Sequence record: OK272482.1
Strand: one strand, 5' to 3'
From: Escherichia phage JLBYU08
Length of the DNA: 64,000 nt
A program made the position numbers and the translations under genes. The notes below the pieces were generated by a model. It had not been told where the DNA came from. It did no database searches and saw only the letters and a list, made by a program, of their open reading frames with translations. Positions 28,118-59,121 of the stretch are shown here, one piece after another. Every line of letters begins with the position of its first letter. Position 1 is the first letter of the stretch.

Positions 28118-28146
28118 TTGACACAATGCTTCAGCTATAGTATTAT
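28118..28146 (+). promoter_or_regulatory. sigma70-like promoter (TTGACA-N17-TATTAT)
   Basis: Consensus hexamers immediately upstream of the HPF homolog. Confidence 0.55.
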
Positions 28147-28198
28147 TGTTTTCAAAGAGAGATGGTTGTTACTCTCTCTTCCTTAAAAGGAGCACGTT

Positions 28199-28516
28199 AT
28201 GCAAATTGAAATCACTGGCAACGTAGAAATCACTGAAGGTATGGTGTCTTTCATTTCCCACAAAATGTCTAAGCTGGAGCGTTTGCACCCCTCTGCCAAC
28301 TATGCACGTGTGAGTGTAAAAGTTGAAAATGATCACCAGGAAGTTATGGCGTTCATTTTTGACAATTCTGGAAAAGAAGTTATTGCCAAGGCTAAAGGCA
28401 GTGATGCTTACGAGGCAACTGACCGTATGGTAGATGTTGCAGCACGTCAGCTGGCTAAATGCGGTGGAAAGAAAGGTAAGGGGAAAGGCAAAGTAAAGAT
28501 TGACTTTGGAGAATGA
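28199..28516 (+). CDS. hpf: ribosome hibernation promoting factor / RaiA-like protein (S30AE family)
   Basis: MQIEITGNVEITEGM...KLERL...VKVEN...GKEVIAKAKGSDAYEATDRMVDVAARQLAK aligns along its length with E. coli HPF; own promoter and RBS AAAGGAG. Confidence 0.7.
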   Translation: MQIEITGNVEITEGMVSFISHKMSKLERLHPSANYARVSVKVENDHQEVMAFIFDNSGKEVIAKAKGSDAYEATDRMVDVAARQLAKCGGKKGKGKGKVKIDFGE

Positions 28517-28653
28517 GGTGCTACAATGGGTGTGATTAAGAAATTAGCCCCAAATGTAGAGATTGCATGCTTTGAAATTATGTTTGCAATCGCAGTTGTA
28601 GTTAATGTGTTAGGTTACGGCTATTAATATCAAATAATTGAGGAGACCTCTAA

Positions 28654-28923
28654 ATGAAAATTAAATTATTCCAAACTGAGCTGGCAGACAAAAATTGTGG
28701 ACTGGTTGAAGGCATGATTGTTGAAGCACAACCAGTGGACTATATGAAGGTGGTTCGTGATGCCCTAGGTGAAGGTTTTGATCTGATGGAGCCAGCTCTG
28801 CGAGAAGATGTTATCGAGATGGCTAAAAAGCACACACCTGAAGGTTTGGTGGTGTTTGTTGCACCGGGTAACGGAGAAGAGTTGATTGTAACTCCCGATG
28901 TGTATGAGATTGTAGAGGAATAA
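28654..28923 (+). CDS. small acidic protein, MKxK paralog family
   Basis: MKIKLFQTEL...YEIVEE. Confidence 0.5.
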   Translation: MKIKLFQTELADKNCGLVEGMIVEAQPVDYMKVVRDALGEGFDLMEPALREDVIEMAKKHTPEGLVVFVAPGNGEELIVTPDVYEIVEE

Positions 28924-29014
28924 TCCTGCTTGGATTAGCATACTTCCTCGCTAAGGAAGATTTGTAATTATTTGTGGGAAAGGAGTCCCAATCTCTTACC
29001 AGAGGTGATACTAT

Positions 29015-34007: not shown

Positions 34008-35536
34008 CACACAATTAGCTGCCCGGCTAAAGTGCTGGAAGCACCTATAACACATCTTTCAACTAAATTTCCTACAACCACAATCACTTACCTCCCACAC
34101 ATGACTGTTTGCTTGTTTAGTGAGCAGTCATGCCTTGACATTCTTGCCTATCCTGATAAAATTAAGTTCTTCTCTTTTCTTTTACCGAGTAATTCGGGTT
34201 TTCTGTTCTCTTCGGTTTGAAGGGGTATGGAGATACACCTGAGTGAACAGGGTGAACAACCGAACATTTGGCTATGGCATTAGCATGGCGAAGCGGACGG
34301 GTGACGAAAGAGGGGCCGGAGGACACCAGTCACTGCCATATGATATATGGGTGATAACCTGAAGAGTCTGAATAAGTGTTTAAGTACCAGTCAGAGGAAA
34401 AGGTGAATGGTAGCCGAAGGGGGAGGGGGGGTTTCTTGTATCTTTAATTTGTATATTATGTATACACTTGTAAACCAATCTCATTTGAATTTGTTTACCA
34501 CACAAAGGGGATAGAGACAAATATTATCTATTAAACTTGAATTATTTATAGAAAATACCACAACACCACTTAAGTCTTTGATTTTACACACAAATCCTAC
34601 AGATATTCACCCTCCATATTTAACATACCTGTAACATATTCCATACCCTACCTGTCTGATCAATTCACCCAACCACACCCTCCATATTTTCCCTGTCTGT
34701 ACCACCCCTGCCCCGCCGGGAGTCCCGTCATATCTGGCTTTCCAGCAAATATCACACCCACAAATATCATTGCCTGAAGAGGGTTTCATCCCATAATACC
34801 TGCCTTACCTGAAGAGCGCTTCATATACCCCGTAAATTTTTTTAATTGACCTCCTCCCCGCCGCCGGAGGGGTCGGCTTTTCCCACACAGGCCTGAAGAG
34901 TCAGCCAGAAATATTTGAACAGGTCCAGTTATACCACGATTTTGACCTGACCGACAGGGAGGCCCGAAGGGTCTAGCTTTCAGCTAGAGTCCTTGCAGGA
35001 CCTACAGGAGCGCTGCCAGGCGGACGAAATGGGAATACTTCTCATTCTTATAACAATTCTCAAATATCAAGGCAGTGAGGCAAATTAATAGGTGAGGCCG
35101 TTCACATAGTGGCACAACATTTGCAATCTATTTTGTGTGGGGGAATGAGAATACATATCATTGTGAGAACCATTATCATTACGGGCAATTTAACATAATA
35201 CCCATTATACGCACCACTGACGATACATACAGGGATTGATAACATGGGTTACTGTTTACGCATATAACAATTATATTTCTTACTATTTGTGTGGGATATA
35301 GTTAGCAGCCGATAGATTAGATATTGACCTGCGGACTTCTGACCGTCTAGACGTCTAAACGCCCACACAACAAGGCTTATACATACATCGCTGAATGTAA
35401 ACAGGGCCGCAAAAATGCTACCATACCAGATTGTAAATTTTTCATGCAGCACTTGACAAAGAGGAGAAAAACTTGTCTGACACAATATGACATACTGGGC
35501 ACATTAAACACACTTTAGACTTAATTGACATGCCTG

Positions 35537-35660
35537 ACTGTTTACGCTGTCACTATTCACGCTATTACTATTCACTCCCTTTACTGTTCACGCTCTTACT
35601 GTTTACATGCTTAATGGTTTACATGCTTAATATACTGCATGTCTAATAGTTTACATAGCT
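35537..35660. repeat. iteron-like array, about 7 tandem copies of CT(G/A)TT(T/C)AC(R) with alternating 14/16-bp spacing
   Basis: ctgtttacgct / ctattcacgct / ctattcactcc / ctgttcacgct / ctgtttacatgcttaat / tggtttacatgcttaat / tagtttacatagc read directly. Confidence 0.6.
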
Positions 35661-36509
35661 AACTATTTATACAGATATGATAAGCCATGCCATTCGTTTG
35701 CATGTTAATAATTTATGACATAATATAAAAGCAGGGCAACTATTAGCAGATCTATAGTTGCCTTGCTTGTCATGTCATGATTAACTAAATACAAGGCAAC
35801 TATGATCTGATTAATAGTTTGCAGACAAACTATCACGGGGGTGATGGTTACTGCTTTTATATTATGTCGCGACTCCGTCGCGCCATGCCATTCGTTTGCA
35901 TAGTTGCCTTATTGTTACAGATAAAATAATTGTATTGTTAATTATTTCTTATCTTTCTCTTAGTCATCTAATGATTCCAGTTAGTATAGTAATGTACAGT
36001 AAACATTAGACGACTAAAGATTTATATGCTTATAATAACTTACAGTGACAATTTCGGACTGTTTACGAAAAATGTTGACACCTGAGCCGATTTATGTTAT
36101 GCAGTTTACACGAATAATTATTTTATGCAGGTATTGACTATTCCGTTATTCCATGGTTGGAATAAATACTTAGCAGTCTATAGAATGGTGACGCTACGTG
36201 AATTCTGGAATTTAGTGGCTATAGTTATACTCGATTTTTCACGTAGAACACGCTTTTGTTAGTGTGTAAGTGTATGACTTATAAAGATTTTTAGTTGTTG
36301 ACAAGATACTGAAGATATGCATCAGGTTAAATTTTGTGCAATAGCGGCATTACGTGCAATTTTGGGAGAGAAAACGGGCAAAAATGGCCTTGCTACCACA
36401 CAATGAAAAATTATGCAATAGTTATTTTCCATGTATATTTGTACAGTGTGTGGGATTAATGGCTAGTCAATTATTCCACTTGCCAGGTAGGGCCGTTTAT
36501 GGTAGGAGA

Positions 36510-56368: not shown

Positions 56369-56697
56369 CATCTGTTCAGGTAGGTCGTTAAGCTACCCCG
56401 CACCATTACGTGCATAGCCATACAGTTTCCTGTATGGATCGGACTACCTCACTGCCTTGGTAACAAGGCACCTCCCATTTCGACCGCACTTGCTGGCCTA
56501 CTCTACTCGCTTCTTCACACCAACCTATGTTGGAGCTATGCTTTCGATAGTCTCTGAACGTTCATCCTCTCGGATGCTTCGCTGCGGATTAGCATATTGA
56601 GCTTTTACCATACTCAGGTGTAAAAGTCAACTTAGCTTTCCCGTCAATTAAAGAGGTTATTCGACATAGATCACTCTATGAAGCCACAATGTTATTT
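56369..56697 (-). other. group I self-splicing intron (no internal ORF)
   Basis: Minus-strand core elements P AATTGACGGGAAAGC, Q AATCCGCAGC, R GTTCAGAGACTA, S GTAGTCCGATCC; exon 1 ends in U, intron ends in G; boundaries inferred. Confidence 0.7.
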
Positions 56698-59121
56698 ATG
56701 GTAATAGATAATACGACGGACACCTTCATCGTACCACCCACGCTTCACCATTTGGTGGTGCATGAGTATCCCAACTAAGTCACACAACGATGCACCACCA
56801 TTTTGTTGGTATGCATTAAGTAAAGAGTGTTTAGATCGGGTCCAGATGGCATGACCATCAAAAGAGTATATAAACTTCTTACCAGTTGCTTCCCAGAATT
56901 TCTCCAGATCCTCTTTACGCCCCTTAAGACCAGGGTTGGCATCCCAAAGCGCATCGATTACCCTTTGCCCCAACTCTGGAGAGATATCCAGCATGTCTGC
57001 AACTTTATCTTTTTGTGCCCCGTACATAACCCCATACGTGATAGGTTTACCGTCGTTACGGGACACCTCTCTGCCTGCTACTTTTGTATATGCCTCAGCA
57101 TTGTTTTGGTGTGCGTCCCCGTTACTTACAACATCATAATACAAGCCGTTGTCGAACTCAAAGGCACCCCAAGCCCCGATAAGCTGCTCTAAGTTGGACC
57201 CGTCAATACCGATCTCAAAGTATCCTGGAGGAACACCCCACAGACTACGCATCTCTTTACCCATAACCACTTTAGGAGATGGTTTAGGCATGTTTGCACA
57301 AATACTGTGTTTCTGTCGGGAAGTGTTTGTTAGCCCAGAACTTTTAGCAGGAAGCTTATGGTCAATCTTCAAACGTGGGTGATTAAGAAGACCAGTATCA
57401 ACCTTATCCTCCTTGATTGGATCAAGGACCGATCTGCGGTTTCGCAATGATAACCACAAGACGATATCTTTAGCCATCTCTCCGTTCAATTTTTCAAGAT
57501 TTGGGCATAGGTGTCCAAACGTATCTTTCAGCTGCGGAGAAGTAATAAGTGCTCTGGCTTTTCTACGTATTTTCCCGAATACTTCCTTTTTAATCCTTTC
57601 GGAGTTAGGAAAGCTTCGGAACTTGTGCACGGTTGTCTGAAACTTAGCATCAGTTTTGTTCCAGAAGTTGATAATCAGGTCACAATACTCTGACTCTAAA
57701 AGCTCGTCCATGTATGCATATACTCGTGCATCAACATCTGCATCAGGTAGAGCTTTCTTCTTGCTGTCTTTAGTTACATCCTTAGTTCTCCACATTGTCG
57801 GAAGCCAACCAGCACTGATCAGGTATCGCTTAATGTCGTCCTGATTGCTGATTTTCATAGGTATCTTGCAGTCCGGCATTCGCTTCTGCTGTAGATCACT
57901 TATTGCCTGATCCATCAGCTCTTTAGGTAAAGGTTGTGGTGTGGAAGTGCCCTTAATATAGCCTCTCAAGAAATCAGCCATCTTATCAGGGTCTTTGCAG
58001 CCCATCTCTTCACACCATTTTATCCCCATCTTGCTGACATCTCCTGTGGAGGTAAATGCTCGCTTAGGCGGGGCTTTGAACTCCAAAGCACTCATGTCCA
58101 CAGGATAGCCAAGCTTATCTTTTAACCATTTCCAACCATTGTTGGAGATTGTCCCATCTTGGTTAAACGGCTTTTCAGGGAACTTGGGCCGCTGAGACAT
58201 TGACAGCTCTTTTAAAGGAAGTTGAGGTTCAACACGATCAGCGATTTCTTTCATCCACGCATCGCAACGGTCACGTAAAGCAATAGCTCCATCTATGTCG
58301 AAGTATACACCCTGACGGGCCTGCAGCTCCATCAGGAAGTGCTGCAGCATGCCTCGACGTAGTGCGTTCTTCCAGGTGATCTTCTTGAACCCTTTCGGCT
58401 TCTCTTTGGCTGGATCGTACATAAAGTTCTGCATGTCAGATTTGCCGTAGAATACACCTTTTGATTCCGCTACCAGCTCTTTCCAGAGCAGCTCCTGGAT
58501 GATAACGTCCTCGAATACACGATCCACATACTTCCACAACGGAAGATCGCGCCAGTCATCAATTTGAACTTTCTGGTTACCAAGGGCGTAGCCCCATGCC
58601 ATAAGGCCGTGAGGACCAACAGGCTGCATTTTCTTAGTAACCGGGTTGAATACAGAGTCCGGACAACCTTTTGGTAAAGGGCGATCAGGCCACAAGATTC
58701 GGCTCATCGCCAACGTATCAAACAGGTTAACCTGGTGGTCGTTGATAGTCCCCATACATTTAGGATCACGGAACATATCAAAATGAATACCGGATAATCT
58801 CTCCATCAGCATAAAGTCATAACTGTAGCAGTTATGGCAGTTCAAAGCTGTTGGTGACCAGTCGGAATTGCCTGTAAGCCAACCCTCCAACTCTGAAAAA
58901 TCTGCTATGCGAACTTCAAAATCTTTATAAAAAGTTTTCTTTGCCAGAATAAAGTTCTTAGCCTTCTCTATATCCTCTTCGGAGTAGTGTGTGCGGTCAT
59001 TTAGAGGAAGGAACAGCATAAAACGGTTCTTATTCAGCTCTTTAAACAGGCCGCAGTGATAATAAAGATCTGGGTCTTCCAGCAAACCGGATGACTCAAA
59101 ATCGAACGACCACATGCTCAT
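56698..59121 (-). CDS. DNA polymerase family A, exon 1 (3'-5' exo and polymerase domains to the His of motif C)
   Basis: Exo I DFESSG at N-terminus, motif B KPITYGVMYGAQ; uninterrupted frame would stop 2 codons after the inferred splice site. Confidence 0.8.

What the first reader, a model, noticed from the sequence alone, without database searches (positions are those of the whole stretch)
28199..28516. Phage-encoded ribosome hibernation factor (HPF/RaiA) homolog with its own promoter
The 105-aa product aligns along its length with bacterial HPF/YfiA: MQ-ITGN-EITE, KLE, VKVE, G-E-A-A-G-D-Y-A-D--D--ARQL-K. It has a consensus TTGACA-N17-TATTAT promoter at 28118-28146 and a strong RBS. A virulent phage carrying a ribosome-silencing factor suggests direct control of host translation, for example parking ribosomes or countering translation-targeting defences. 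The lysine/glycine-rich tail (GGKKGKGKGK) is not typical of E. coli HPF.
Basis: partly seen in the sequence, partly recalled or inferred. Interest (0 to 1): 0.8.

Follow-up and report, generated by a model that had tools for sequence, protein, structure and literature searches.

The report
Known phage copy of ribosome hibernation factor
This is a real gene in an rV5-like E. coli phage that resembles the bacterial protein that puts ribosomes to sleep, but it was annotated in 2006, published in 2019 and tested once without a clear result, so only its actual job remains open.

Summary
Window 28199-28516 (+) encodes a 105-aa protein. It matches Pfam Ribosomal_S30AE (48.3 bits, cut-off 23.7) and TIGR00741 HPF/YfiA (45.9, cut-off 40.9). 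It is 43% identical to E. coli HPF, and its model has the beta-alpha-beta-beta-beta-alpha fold (rmsd 1.0-1.1 A to solved HPFs). The TTGACA-N17-TATTAT promoter and AAGGAG ribosome-binding site are there. Promoters this close to consensus occur 22 times in the window against about 1.8 expected.

It is not new. The window is a Vequintavirus (rV5-like coliphage), and the protein is 100% identical to rV5 gp144 (ABI79209). GenBank has annotated that gene, with promoter P144, since 2006. Mizuno et al. 2019 listed it as a phage HPF and expressed it in E. coli. They found it in crude extract but not in salt-washed 70S/100S ribosomes, and saw no effect on 100S.

What I add:
- The gene is under strong purifying selection (dN/dS 0.04-0.13).
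- It forms an isolated lineage.
- 13 of 33 columns conserved in bacterial HPF/RaiA are changed, including rRNA contacts T53, K80 and K89.
- The Lys/Gly tail is predicted to be disordered and tolerates frameshifts.
- The published negative is weak, because host HPF and RMF were also absent from those ribosome preparations.

Function remains inferred.

The parts
28118..28146 (+). Sigma-70-type promoter (TTGACA-N17-TATTAT), equivalent to P144 of phage rV5
   Evidence: It matches 11 of 12 consensus positions. It belongs to a family of 22 near-consensus sites against 1.8 expected. The same site is annotated as promoter P144 in DQ832317. It is conserved in 16 other phage copies. Activity has not been measured.
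28156..28179 (+). Small hairpin at the predicted 5' end of the transcript (7-8 bp stem AGAGAGA/UCUCUCU)
   Evidence: Folding gives -10 to -12.5 kcal/mol. rV5-type copies have AGAGGG/CCCUCU, an A-U to G-C swap at one pair. The z-scores are weak (-1.0 to -2.7) and the hairpin is absent from the 64%-identity lineage. Its role is unknown; a 5' stabilising hairpin is a guess.
28187..28192 (+). Shine-Dalgarno sequence AAGGAG, 6 nt upstream of the ATG
   Evidence: Read directly from the sequence. GGA is invariant in 11 aligned copies.
28199..28465 (+). Codons 1-89: HPF/RaiA (Ribosomal_S30AE) domain
   Evidence: Pfam PF02482 E 1.8e-12, 48.3 bits against a cut-off of 23.7, residues 3-88. TIGR00741 45.9 bits against 40.9. 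E. coli HPF 2rql E 5e-12 over residues 1-89. AlphaFold2 pLDDT is 79-96 per 10-residue block over residues 1-90, with elements E2-7 H13-29 E33-42 E47-55 E60-67 H70-89. The top 36 Foldseek PDB matches are all HPF/RaiA/pY. dN/dS is 0.04-0.13.
28466..28516 (+). Codons 90-105 plus stop: Lys/Gly-rich tail GKKGKGKGKVKIDFGE
   Evidence: pLDDT is below 50 for residues 91-105. Similarity to the RaiA tail (p 0.31) or the HPF tail (p 0.18) is not significant. Length and frame vary among phages: Murica 99 aa ...GKGKAK, APCEc02 ...GRKKGKGERQSKD, FV3 ...DFWD. The 64% lineage has YSKSKGIDKRTAKWDY. What is conserved is its basic character (5-6 K/R in the two tails counted).
28526..28627 (+). 33-aa ORF (rV5 ORF145), probably co-transcribed
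   Evidence: Listed and annotated as hypothetical in rV5. It has no Pfam hit. tblastn finds no match to it in the 64%-identity lineage.
28654..28923 (+). 89-aa ORF (rV5 ORF146), probably co-transcribed, function unknown
   Evidence: Found. It has no Pfam hit. It is 60% identical and syntenic in the divergent lineage. Some GenBank records wrongly call it 'sigma 54 modulation factor'.
28943..28969 (+). Terminator-like hairpin plus T-rich run that may end the P144 unit
   Evidence: Pattern scan only, 6-bp stem. The number of such sites in the region equals chance (5 found against 5.0 expected), so this part is weak.

Best explanation
The gene encodes a phage-borne, single-domain ('short') member of the HPF/RaiA family. 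It is the already described gp144 of rV5-like coliphages.

Shown: family membership, the fold, purifying selection, and a near-consensus host-type promoter in the block of small early-region genes.

Inferred: host RNA polymerase transcribes it soon after infection. The protein then sits in the HPF/RaiA site of the 30S subunit, the channel between head and body that covers the A- and P-site tRNA and mRNA positions. It uses the retained contacts K25, R83, K87 and K91 plus new lysines (K59, K64, K66 and the tail). This would hold vacant host ribosomes as silent, nuclease-protected 70S monomers, in a RaiA-like manner.

It lacks the HPF-specific C-terminal contacts (K93, H95, R33) and the phage encodes no RMF partner. 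I therefore do not expect it to drive 100S dimer formation by itself. Because several invariant rRNA contacts are replaced, binding is probably weaker and more salt-labile than that of host factors.
For: Family and fold:
- Pfam and TIGRFAM matches are above curated cut-offs.
- The protein is 43% identical to E. coli HPF and 25% to RaiA.
- The HPF equivalog scores 55.8 bits against 17.6 for RaiA.
- The model has the HPF topology, at rmsd 1.0-1.1 A to V. cholerae and E. coli HPF.

The gene is functional:
- dN/dS is 0.04-0.13 with dS up to 0.75.
- It is present in 118 phage records.
- A syntenic 64% ortholog exists in a divergent lineage.

Expression: the promoter belongs to a family of 22 sites against 1.8 expected, and it is conserved.

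Contacts: K26, R83, K87 and K91 (E. coli numbering) are kept, while R17, R33, T53, H55, K80, K89, K93 and H95 are replaced. Net charge is +2 against -1 for HPF.

Other points:
- No RMF homolog was found in 50,697 phage records.
- Mizuno 2019 saw no effect on 100S.
- Host RaiA was absent from ribosomes only in cells expressing the viral protein, although it was present in their extract. That is consistent with competition for the same site.
Against: - The only direct test found no viral HPF peptides in purified 70S/100S ribosomes, although the protein was expressed. This negative is weak. Host HPF and RMF were also absent from all three ribosome preparations while present in the extract, and cells were harvested at the end of exponential growth.
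- Thirteen of 33 columns conserved across bacterial HPF and RaiA are changed, including rRNA contacts T53 and K80, which are invariant in all 40 aligned Enterobacterales HPF and RaiA sequences. Ribosome binding may be lost or redirected.
- It is not obvious why a lytic phage that needs ribosomes would silence them.
- There are no expression-timing data.
- The structural model was built on an alignment dominated by bacterial HPF/RaiA, so it leans toward their fold.
Confidence: 0.45

Rival explanations
1. Anti-hibernation competitor. The phage protein occupies the HPF/RaiA site mainly to displace the host's tightly bound RaiA or HPF, and its longer tail hinders RMF. It dissociates easily itself. 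Ribosomes of slow-growing or stationary hosts would then be released for phage translation rather than silenced.
For: - Several invariant rRNA contacts are replaced, which predicts weaker binding.
- The viral protein is lost from salt-washed ribosomes.
- Host RaiA was detected on ribosomes from the bS21 and bL12 strains but not from the viral-HPF strain, although it was present in that strain's extract.
- The tail extends 10 residues beyond the end of HPF, as RaiA's tail does.
- The promoter is of the early host type.
Against: - The RaiA observation is a single, non-quantitative mass-spectrometry list.
- A weaker binder can displace a stronger one only by mass action.
- The tail has no significant similarity to the RaiA tail (p 0.31) and is predicted to be disordered.
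- No change in the 70S/100S profile was reported.
- No infection data exist.
Confidence: 0.2
2. Canonical HPF function. Together with host RMF it promotes 100S dimers, shutting down and storing host ribosomes exactly as E. coli HPF does.
For: It is closest to Enterobacterales HPF: 40-45% identity, and 55.8 bits on the HPF equivalog against 17.6 for RaiA. GenBank records name it hpf.
Against: - The score is far below the HPF equivalog cut-off (55.8 against 125).
- The HPF-specific contacts R33 and K93 (E-site tRNA) and H95 (stacking on G693) are all replaced.
- No effect on 100S was seen on expression.
- No phage RMF exists, and host RMF is a stationary-phase protein (established knowledge).
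Confidence: 0.12
3. Neofunctionalised RNA-binding protein. The HPF fold, which resembles a double-stranded-RNA-binding domain, has been recruited to bind another RNA or protein, such as phage mRNA leaders, tRNA or a host factor, and no longer acts on the ribosome.
For: - It was not found on ribosomes.
- 13 of 33 family-conserved columns are changed.
- Residues specific to and conserved in both phage lineages (G14, V16, H30-P31, D45-H46-Q47-E48, F54-D55, K59, K64, K66) suggest a new constrained surface.
- Weaker fold matches include dsRBDs.
- An HPF with a second partner is known in S. aureus (PMC9522360, listed).
Against: - The core rRNA contacts R83, K87, K26 and K91 are kept.
- Changed contact positions also differ between the two phage lineages (F/R, V/T, A/V, G/S). 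That looks like relaxation rather than a new fixed interface.
- No alternative partner is indicated by any result here.
Confidence: 0.12
4. Decaying passenger gene with no current function.
For: One copy (phage YP-6) has a stop at codon 4. The tail is truncated or frameshifted in Murica and APCEc02.
Against: - dN/dS is 0.04-0.13 on the core.
- Copies are 94-100% identical in protein across 117 phage records.
- The gene is retained in synteny in a lineage whose neighbouring genes are only 27-67% identical, with one at 88%.
- The promoter and RBS are conserved.
Confidence: 0.03

Closest known systems
Escherichia phage rV5 / V5 gp144 (ABI79209; RefSeq 'ribosome-associated translation inhibitor RaiA'), the phage HPF of Mizuno et al. 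2019
   Same: The protein sequence is identical over all 105 residues (H39). The promoter position (P144), gene order and neighbours are the same. It is the same gene in a sister genome that is about 97% identical in DNA.
   Different: Only synonymous or flanking DNA differences (2 synonymous changes), and a slightly longer 5'UTR hairpin.
E. coli short HPF (YhbH; PDB 2rql, 6h4n, 4v8h)
   Same: It has the same single S30AE domain and topology, is 43% identical, superposes at rmsd 1.1 A, and has the same N-terminal MQ(L/I)xITG...VEIT motif. The rRNA contacts K26, R83, K87 and K91 are kept.
   Different: - It fails the HPF equivalog cut-off (55.8 against 125 bits).
- One residue is deleted at position 8.
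- R17V, R33S, T53F, H55F, E60K, K80V and K89G are changed, and the C-terminal K93/H95 contacts are replaced by a longer, disordered Lys/Gly tail.
- It is not in the rpoN operon but in a phage early-gene block with a sigma-70 promoter.
- No 100S effect was reported.
E. coli RaiA / YfiA / protein Y (PDB 4v8i, 1n3g)
   Same: It shares the fold and family and has a C-terminal extension beyond helix alpha-2. I62 and K66 are RaiA-like residues. RefSeq names the phage protein RaiA.
   Different: It is only 25% identical. The RaiA equivalog scores 17.6 bits against a cut-off of 158. The tail is unrelated in sequence (p 0.31) and basic rather than acidic.
Other phage-encoded S30AE proteins (PHROG 8990; Cronobacter phage GAP32, Xanthomonas phage XaC1, Listeria phage records)
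   Same: They are phage-borne HPF/RaiA domains.
   Different: They are distant in sequence. PHROG 8990 matches at E 1.5e-6, against 7.5e-71 for the gene's own PHROG 12469. They were not found by tblastn with the phage protein at 1e-5. Mizuno 2019 inferred separate acquisitions.

Membership tests
HPF/RaiA superfamily (Pfam PF02482 Ribosomal_S30AE; TIGR00741) | Significant profile match above the curated cut-off | tested here: met
   PF02482 scores 48.3 bits against 23.7, E 1.8e-12, residues 3-88. TIGR00741 scores 45.9 against 40.9.
HPF/RaiA superfamily (Pfam PF02482 Ribosomal_S30AE; TIGR00741) | Beta-alpha-beta-beta-beta-alpha fold | tested here: met
   The AlphaFold2 model has E2-7 H13-29 E33-42 E47-55 E60-67 H70-89 with pLDDT 79-96 per 10-residue block over residues 1-90. 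The top 36 PDB matches are all family members, at rmsd 1.0-1.1 A. Caveat: the alignment used was mostly bacterial HPF/RaiA.
HPF/RaiA superfamily (Pfam PF02482 Ribosomal_S30AE; TIGR00741) | Conserved basic rRNA contacts of helix alpha-2 (K80, R83, K87, K91; plus K89 in HPF) | tested here: inconclusive
   R83, K87 and K91 are kept. K80 is changed to V (T in the second phage lineage) and K89 to G.
HPF/RaiA superfamily (Pfam PF02482 Ribosomal_S30AE; TIGR00741) | Thr53 / residue 62 motif contacting m2G966 | tested here: not met
   T53, present in 38 of 40 bacterial sequences, is F52 here and R in the second lineage. Residue 62 is I, which is RaiA-like.
HPF/RaiA superfamily (Pfam PF02482 Ribosomal_S30AE; TIGR00741) | Binds the 30S decoding channel and blocks tRNA and mRNA | not testable with these tools
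   The published test found no viral HPF in salt-washed 70S/100S ribosomes. Host HPF and RMF were also absent from those preparations, so the test is not decisive.
Gammaproteobacterial short HPF (NCBIfam NF007780 equivalog) | Equivalog-level score | tested here: not met
   55.8 bits against a cut-off of 125. Identity to Enterobacterales HPF is 37-43% in the alignment.
Gammaproteobacterial short HPF (NCBIfam NF007780 equivalog) | C-terminal and loop contacts specific to the 100S state (R33 and K93 to E-site tRNA, H95 stacking on G693) | tested here: not met
   R33 is S32, K93 is G93 and H95 is G95. The roles are taken from Beckert 2018.
Gammaproteobacterial short HPF (NCBIfam NF007780 equivalog) | Promotes 100S dimers together with RMF | not testable with these tools
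   Mizuno 2019 reported no discernible effect on 100S. No RMF homolog was found in any phage record.
RaiA / YfiA (NCBIfam NF007654 equivalog) | Equivalog-level score and the RaiA C-terminal tail | tested here: not met
   17.6 bits against a cut-off of 158. Identity is 25%. The tail similarity is not significant, p 0.31.
Long HPF (N-terminal S30AE domain plus C-terminal dimerisation domain) | Second, C-terminal dimerisation domain | tested here: not met
   The protein is 105 aa with only one Pfam domain. Residues 91-105 are predicted to be disordered.

The most novel reading that the evidence does not exclude
The phage protein is not a silencer but an anti-hibernation factor. It would be a fast-off competitor that evicts host RaiA/HPF (and, through its basic tail, RMF) from the ribosomes of slow-growing gut E. 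coli, so that the phage can translate in hosts whose ribosomes are parked. The hints are the remodelled contact surface, the salt-labile behaviour, and the disappearance of RaiA from ribosomes only in cells expressing the viral protein.
Probability: 0.18. Interest if true: 0.75.

Novelty: already known. Interest (0 to 1): 0.25.

Why it matters
Hibernation factors decide whether a starving bacterium's ribosomes are stored, protected or destroyed. Most natural hosts of gut coliphages are slow-growing. A phage copy under strong purifying selection shows that rV5-like phages gain something by touching this system, yet nobody knows what. The existence of the gene is old news. What remains of value is a sharper hypothesis: the contacts are rewired, binding is probably weak, competition with RaiA is possible, and 100S promotion is not expected. 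The one published negative experiment also lacked a working positive control. If the competitor model proved right, it would be the first viral factor shown to reverse ribosome hibernation, which is relevant to phage therapy against dormant cells.

Tried and rejected
- RaiA-like tail. Local alignment of the last 18 residues against the RaiA and HPF tails was no better than shuffles (p 0.31 and 0.18). Rejected.
- Phage-encoded RMF partner.
- Close bacterial donor. The exhaustive phmmer search of 1.84 billion representatives gave only the phage's own cluster. The next hits are at or below 45% identity and are ordinary HPFs, and P0123 is an Enterobacterales HPF with a frameshifted end. No donor was identifiable.
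- IMG/VR scan for more copies. Only 2 loci came back, so I used GenBank phage records instead.
- Later functional literature. Eight full-text searches found only Mizuno 2019 and a re-mention in Mathieu 2020.
- 5'UTR hairpin as a regulatory element. There is one compensatory swap, but the z-scores are weak and it is absent from the divergent lineage. Left as a side note.
- Neighbouring genes as functional partners. They have no Pfam domains.
- 'Sigma 54 modulation', the historical name. It comes from the position of bacterial hpf next to rpoN and carries no evidence of sigma-54 activity for this phage protein.

Full report
**1.

AAGGAG sits at 28187-28192, 6 nt from the ATG. TTGACA-N17-TATTAT lies at 28118-28146 and matches 11 of 12 consensus positions.

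In the 7-kb neighbourhood, the number of loosely promoter-like sites equals chance (15 found, 15.1 expected). Sites matching at least 11/12 are a different matter. There are 22 in the window against 1.8 +/- 1.3 in Markov simulations. All 12 on the + strand lie before 35 kb and all 10 on the - strand lie after 37 kb, which follows gene orientation. The site therefore belongs to a genuine family of host-type promoters. It is conserved in 16 other copies of the locus.

**2. What the window is**

DNA and protein searches identify the window as a Vequintavirus, an rV5-like lytic E. coli myophage.
- 117 phage records hold the 1.2-kb region. 116 of them are 90-99% identical and one falls in the 80-90% band.
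- 118 records hold the protein. 117 of them are 94-100% identical. The exception is a Salmonella contig carrying the bacterial gene.
- The protein is 100% identical to phage V5/rV5 ORF144 (ABI79209).
- GenBank record DQ832317 calls it 'sigma 54 modulation factor' and annotates the 'Sigma70-type promoter; P144' at the equivalent place.
- Other records call it hpf, ribosome hibernation factor or RaiA.

**3. It is an HPF-family protein**

*Profile and sequence matches*
- Pfam Ribosomal_S30AE: 48.3 bits (cut-off 23.7), E 1.8e-12, residues 3-88.
- TIGR00741 HPF/YfiA: 45.9 bits (cut-off 40.9).
- HPF equivalog NF007780: 55.8 bits, below its cut-off of 125. RaiA equivalog: 17.6 bits, below 158.
- phmmer against PDB sequences puts E. 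coli HPF first (E 5e-12, residues 1-89).
- Identity is 43% to E. coli HPF and 25% to RaiA. Against a panel of Enterobacterales proteins it is 37-43% to HPFs and 21-25% to RaiAs.

*Structure*
- An AlphaFold2 model built on a 43-sequence alignment has mean pLDDT 83.6.
- Its elements are E2-7, H13-29, E33-42, E47-55, E60-67 and H70-89, the beta-alpha-beta-beta-beta-alpha topology.
- Residues 91-105 have pLDDT below 50.
- The 36 best Foldseek matches in the PDB are all HPF, RaiA, pY or long-HPF N-domains. V. cholerae HPF superposes at rmsd 1.0 A and ribosome-bound E. coli HPF (6h4n) at 1.1 A.

One caveat applies: the alignment fed to the predictor was dominated by bacterial family members.

**4. 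It is already known**

Mizuno et al. 2019 (PMC6375957) list rV5 ABI79209 and five sister phages as encoding HPF. They note that the coliphage sequences cluster among gammaproteobacterial HPFs.

They also expressed the rV5 gene from pBAD24 in E. coli NM522. Peptides of the viral protein were found in crude extract but not in sucrose-gradient 70S/100S ribosomes isolated under stringent salt, and the 100S peak did not change. Mathieu et al. 2020 repeat that their five rV5 phages carry hpf 'as already described'.

The 2013 rV5 genome paper predicts 33 host-type promoters and describes this region as 88 mainly small ORFs. Eight full-text searches found no later functional study. The library does not cover most subscription journals, so I cannot exclude one.

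**5. What I can add about the gene**

*(a) Selection.* Across copies with dS of 0.12-0.75, dN/dS on the 89-codon core is 0.04-0.13. For example, the window compared with phage Aya has 24 synonymous and 5 non-synonymous differences.

*(b) Age and isolation.*
- A 64%-identical ortholog (P0004, 103 aa, also a clear S30AE hit) lies on 125-137-kb contigs.
- Those contigs are only about 73-76% identical in DNA to known Vequintaviruses, over about a third of the region.
- Gene order is the same as in the window. Neighbouring proteins are 27-67% identical, with one at 88%.
- An exhaustive phmmer search of 1.84 billion cluster representatives found only the phage's own cluster as a strong hit. Everything else is at or below 45% identity. 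No recent bacterial donor can be identified.

*(c) The ribosome-contact surface is rewired.* I used the contact lists for Gram-negative HPF/RaiA (bioRxiv 10.1101/2025.10.07.680626) and for the E. coli 100S ribosome (Beckert 2018). I mapped them through an alignment of 24 HPFs and 16 RaiAs.

| E. coli HPF position | Contact | Phage residue |
|---|---|---|
| K26 | rRNA phosphates | kept |
| R83 | m4C1402 | kept |
| K87 | 16S rRNA | kept |
| K91 | 16S rRNA | kept |
| Q29 | rRNA phosphates | R |
| H62 | m2G966 | I (RaiA-like) |
| position 8 | 16S A964 | deleted |
| R17 | role not stated | V |
| R33 | E-site tRNA | S |
| T53 | m2G966 | F |
| H55 | uS9 | F |
| E60 | uS9 | K |
| K80 | 16S rRNA | V |
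| T/N86 | m3U1498 | A |
| K89 | 16S rRNA | G |
| K93 | E-site tRNA | G |
| H95 | stacks on G693 | G |

- Overall, 13 of 33 columns that are at least 90% conserved in all 40 bacterial proteins are changed.
- New lysines appear at 59, 64 and 66 and in the tail, so net charge rises to +2 against -1 for HPF.
- Positions that changed relative to bacteria often differ between the two phage lineages as well (F/R, V/T, A/V, G/S). That looks more like relaxation than a newly fixed interface.

*(d) The tail.*
- It is predicted to be disordered.
- It has no significant similarity to the RaiA or HPF tails.
- It varies by indel and frameshift in an A/G-rich tract: Murica is 99 aa, APCEc02 is 101 aa with a different end, and FV3 and ECP32 have different last residues.
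- Only its basic character is conserved.

*(e) Partner.* No RMF homolog exists in any of 50,697 phage records.

**6. Re-reading the published negative result**

The supplementary mass-spectrometry tables show the following.
- Host HPF and RMF are present in the crude extract of cells expressing the viral HPF.
- They are absent from all three purified-ribosome lists.
- The preparation therefore did not retain even the genuine factors, so the absence of the viral protein says little.
- Host RaiA was detected on ribosomes from the bS21 strain (1 peptide) and the bL12 strain (score 137).
- RaiA is not among the 71 proteins on ribosomes from the viral-HPF strain, although it is present in that strain's extract.

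This is one non-quantitative comparison. It is what competition for the shared 30S site would produce.

**7. Mechanism**

*Shown:* family, fold, selection and promoter.

*Inferred (confidence 0.45):*
- The gene is expressed early by host RNA polymerase.
- The protein binds reversibly in the HPF/RaiA site of vacant ribosomes.
- It holds them as silent, protected 70S monomers rather than promoting 100S, because the HPF-specific C-terminal and E-site tRNA contacts are gone and there is no phage RMF.

*Rivals:*

| Rival | Confidence |
|---|---|
| Anti-hibernation competitor that frees ribosomes | 0.20 |
| Canonical HPF acting with host RMF | 0.12 |
| Neofunctionalised RNA binder | 0.12 |
| Decaying passenger gene (contradicted by dN/dS) | 0.03 |

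**8. Verdict**

The finding is a correct reading of a real gene, but it is already known in databases and in the literature, including one experimental test. Interest is low to moderate (0.25). The unanswered question of what the protein does for the phage is real. The residue-level analysis and the control problem in the published experiment give a concrete way to address it.

Noticed in passing
window 56419-56707 (- strand): Group I catalytic intron (Rfam RF00028), 72.5 bits against a gathering score of 50, E 1.9e-16, matching the full-length model. I did not examine which gene it interrupts.
   Followed up: no
window ~34,220-36,350: A stretch of about 2.4 kb with almost no ORFs of 60 aa or more, at the point where genes and near-consensus promoters switch from the + strand to the - strand. 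It corresponds to the 'non-coding' box 104013-106618 reported for rV5. Its function is unknown; it might be an origin or a regulatory region.
   Followed up: partly
window 28156-28179: A 7-8 bp hairpin at the predicted 5' end of the hpf transcript. The window has AGAGAGA/UCUCUCU and rV5-type copies have AGAGGG/CCCUCU, one compensatory pair. The z-scores are weak and the hairpin is absent from the 64%-identity lineage.
   Followed up: partly
window 28654-28923 (+); GenBank KR698074, MN850578, MK883718 and others: Several records label the 89-aa ORF two genes downstream as 'sigma 54 modulation factor', although it has no S30AE or any other Pfam match. This looks like an off-by-one annotation slip that has been propagated. 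Other records label the real hpf as 'ATP-dependent protease La type I'.
   Followed up: yes
L017 (Escherichia phage YP-6, OQ376695.1) 401-412: This copy of hpf has a stop at codon 4 (MQI*). The record annotates a shortened CDS starting at Met15. This is either a natural knockout or a sequencing error.
   Followed up: partly
phage records MG0656xx ('Campylobacter phage', UNVERIFIED): Eighteen records named Campylobacter phage are rV5-like genomes that carry this gene at 97-100% protein identity. They are probably coliphages mislabelled by host.
   Followed up: no
L002-L005 (Logan/ENA contigs of 15-125 kb; P0004 also occurs on a 136,793-bp contig): A lineage of Vequintavirus-like phages that gave no hit for this gene in the GenBank phage collection searched. 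It is about 73-76% identical in DNA over a third of this region and has the same gene order. NCBI carries its HPF under E. coli protein accessions.
   Followed up: partly
P0122 (1160 aa): A 1160-aa protein in the representative library matches residues 35-81 of the query in 8 separate stretches. It appears to contain tandem repeats of the beta-sheet part of the S30AE domain. I did not examine it.
   Followed up: no
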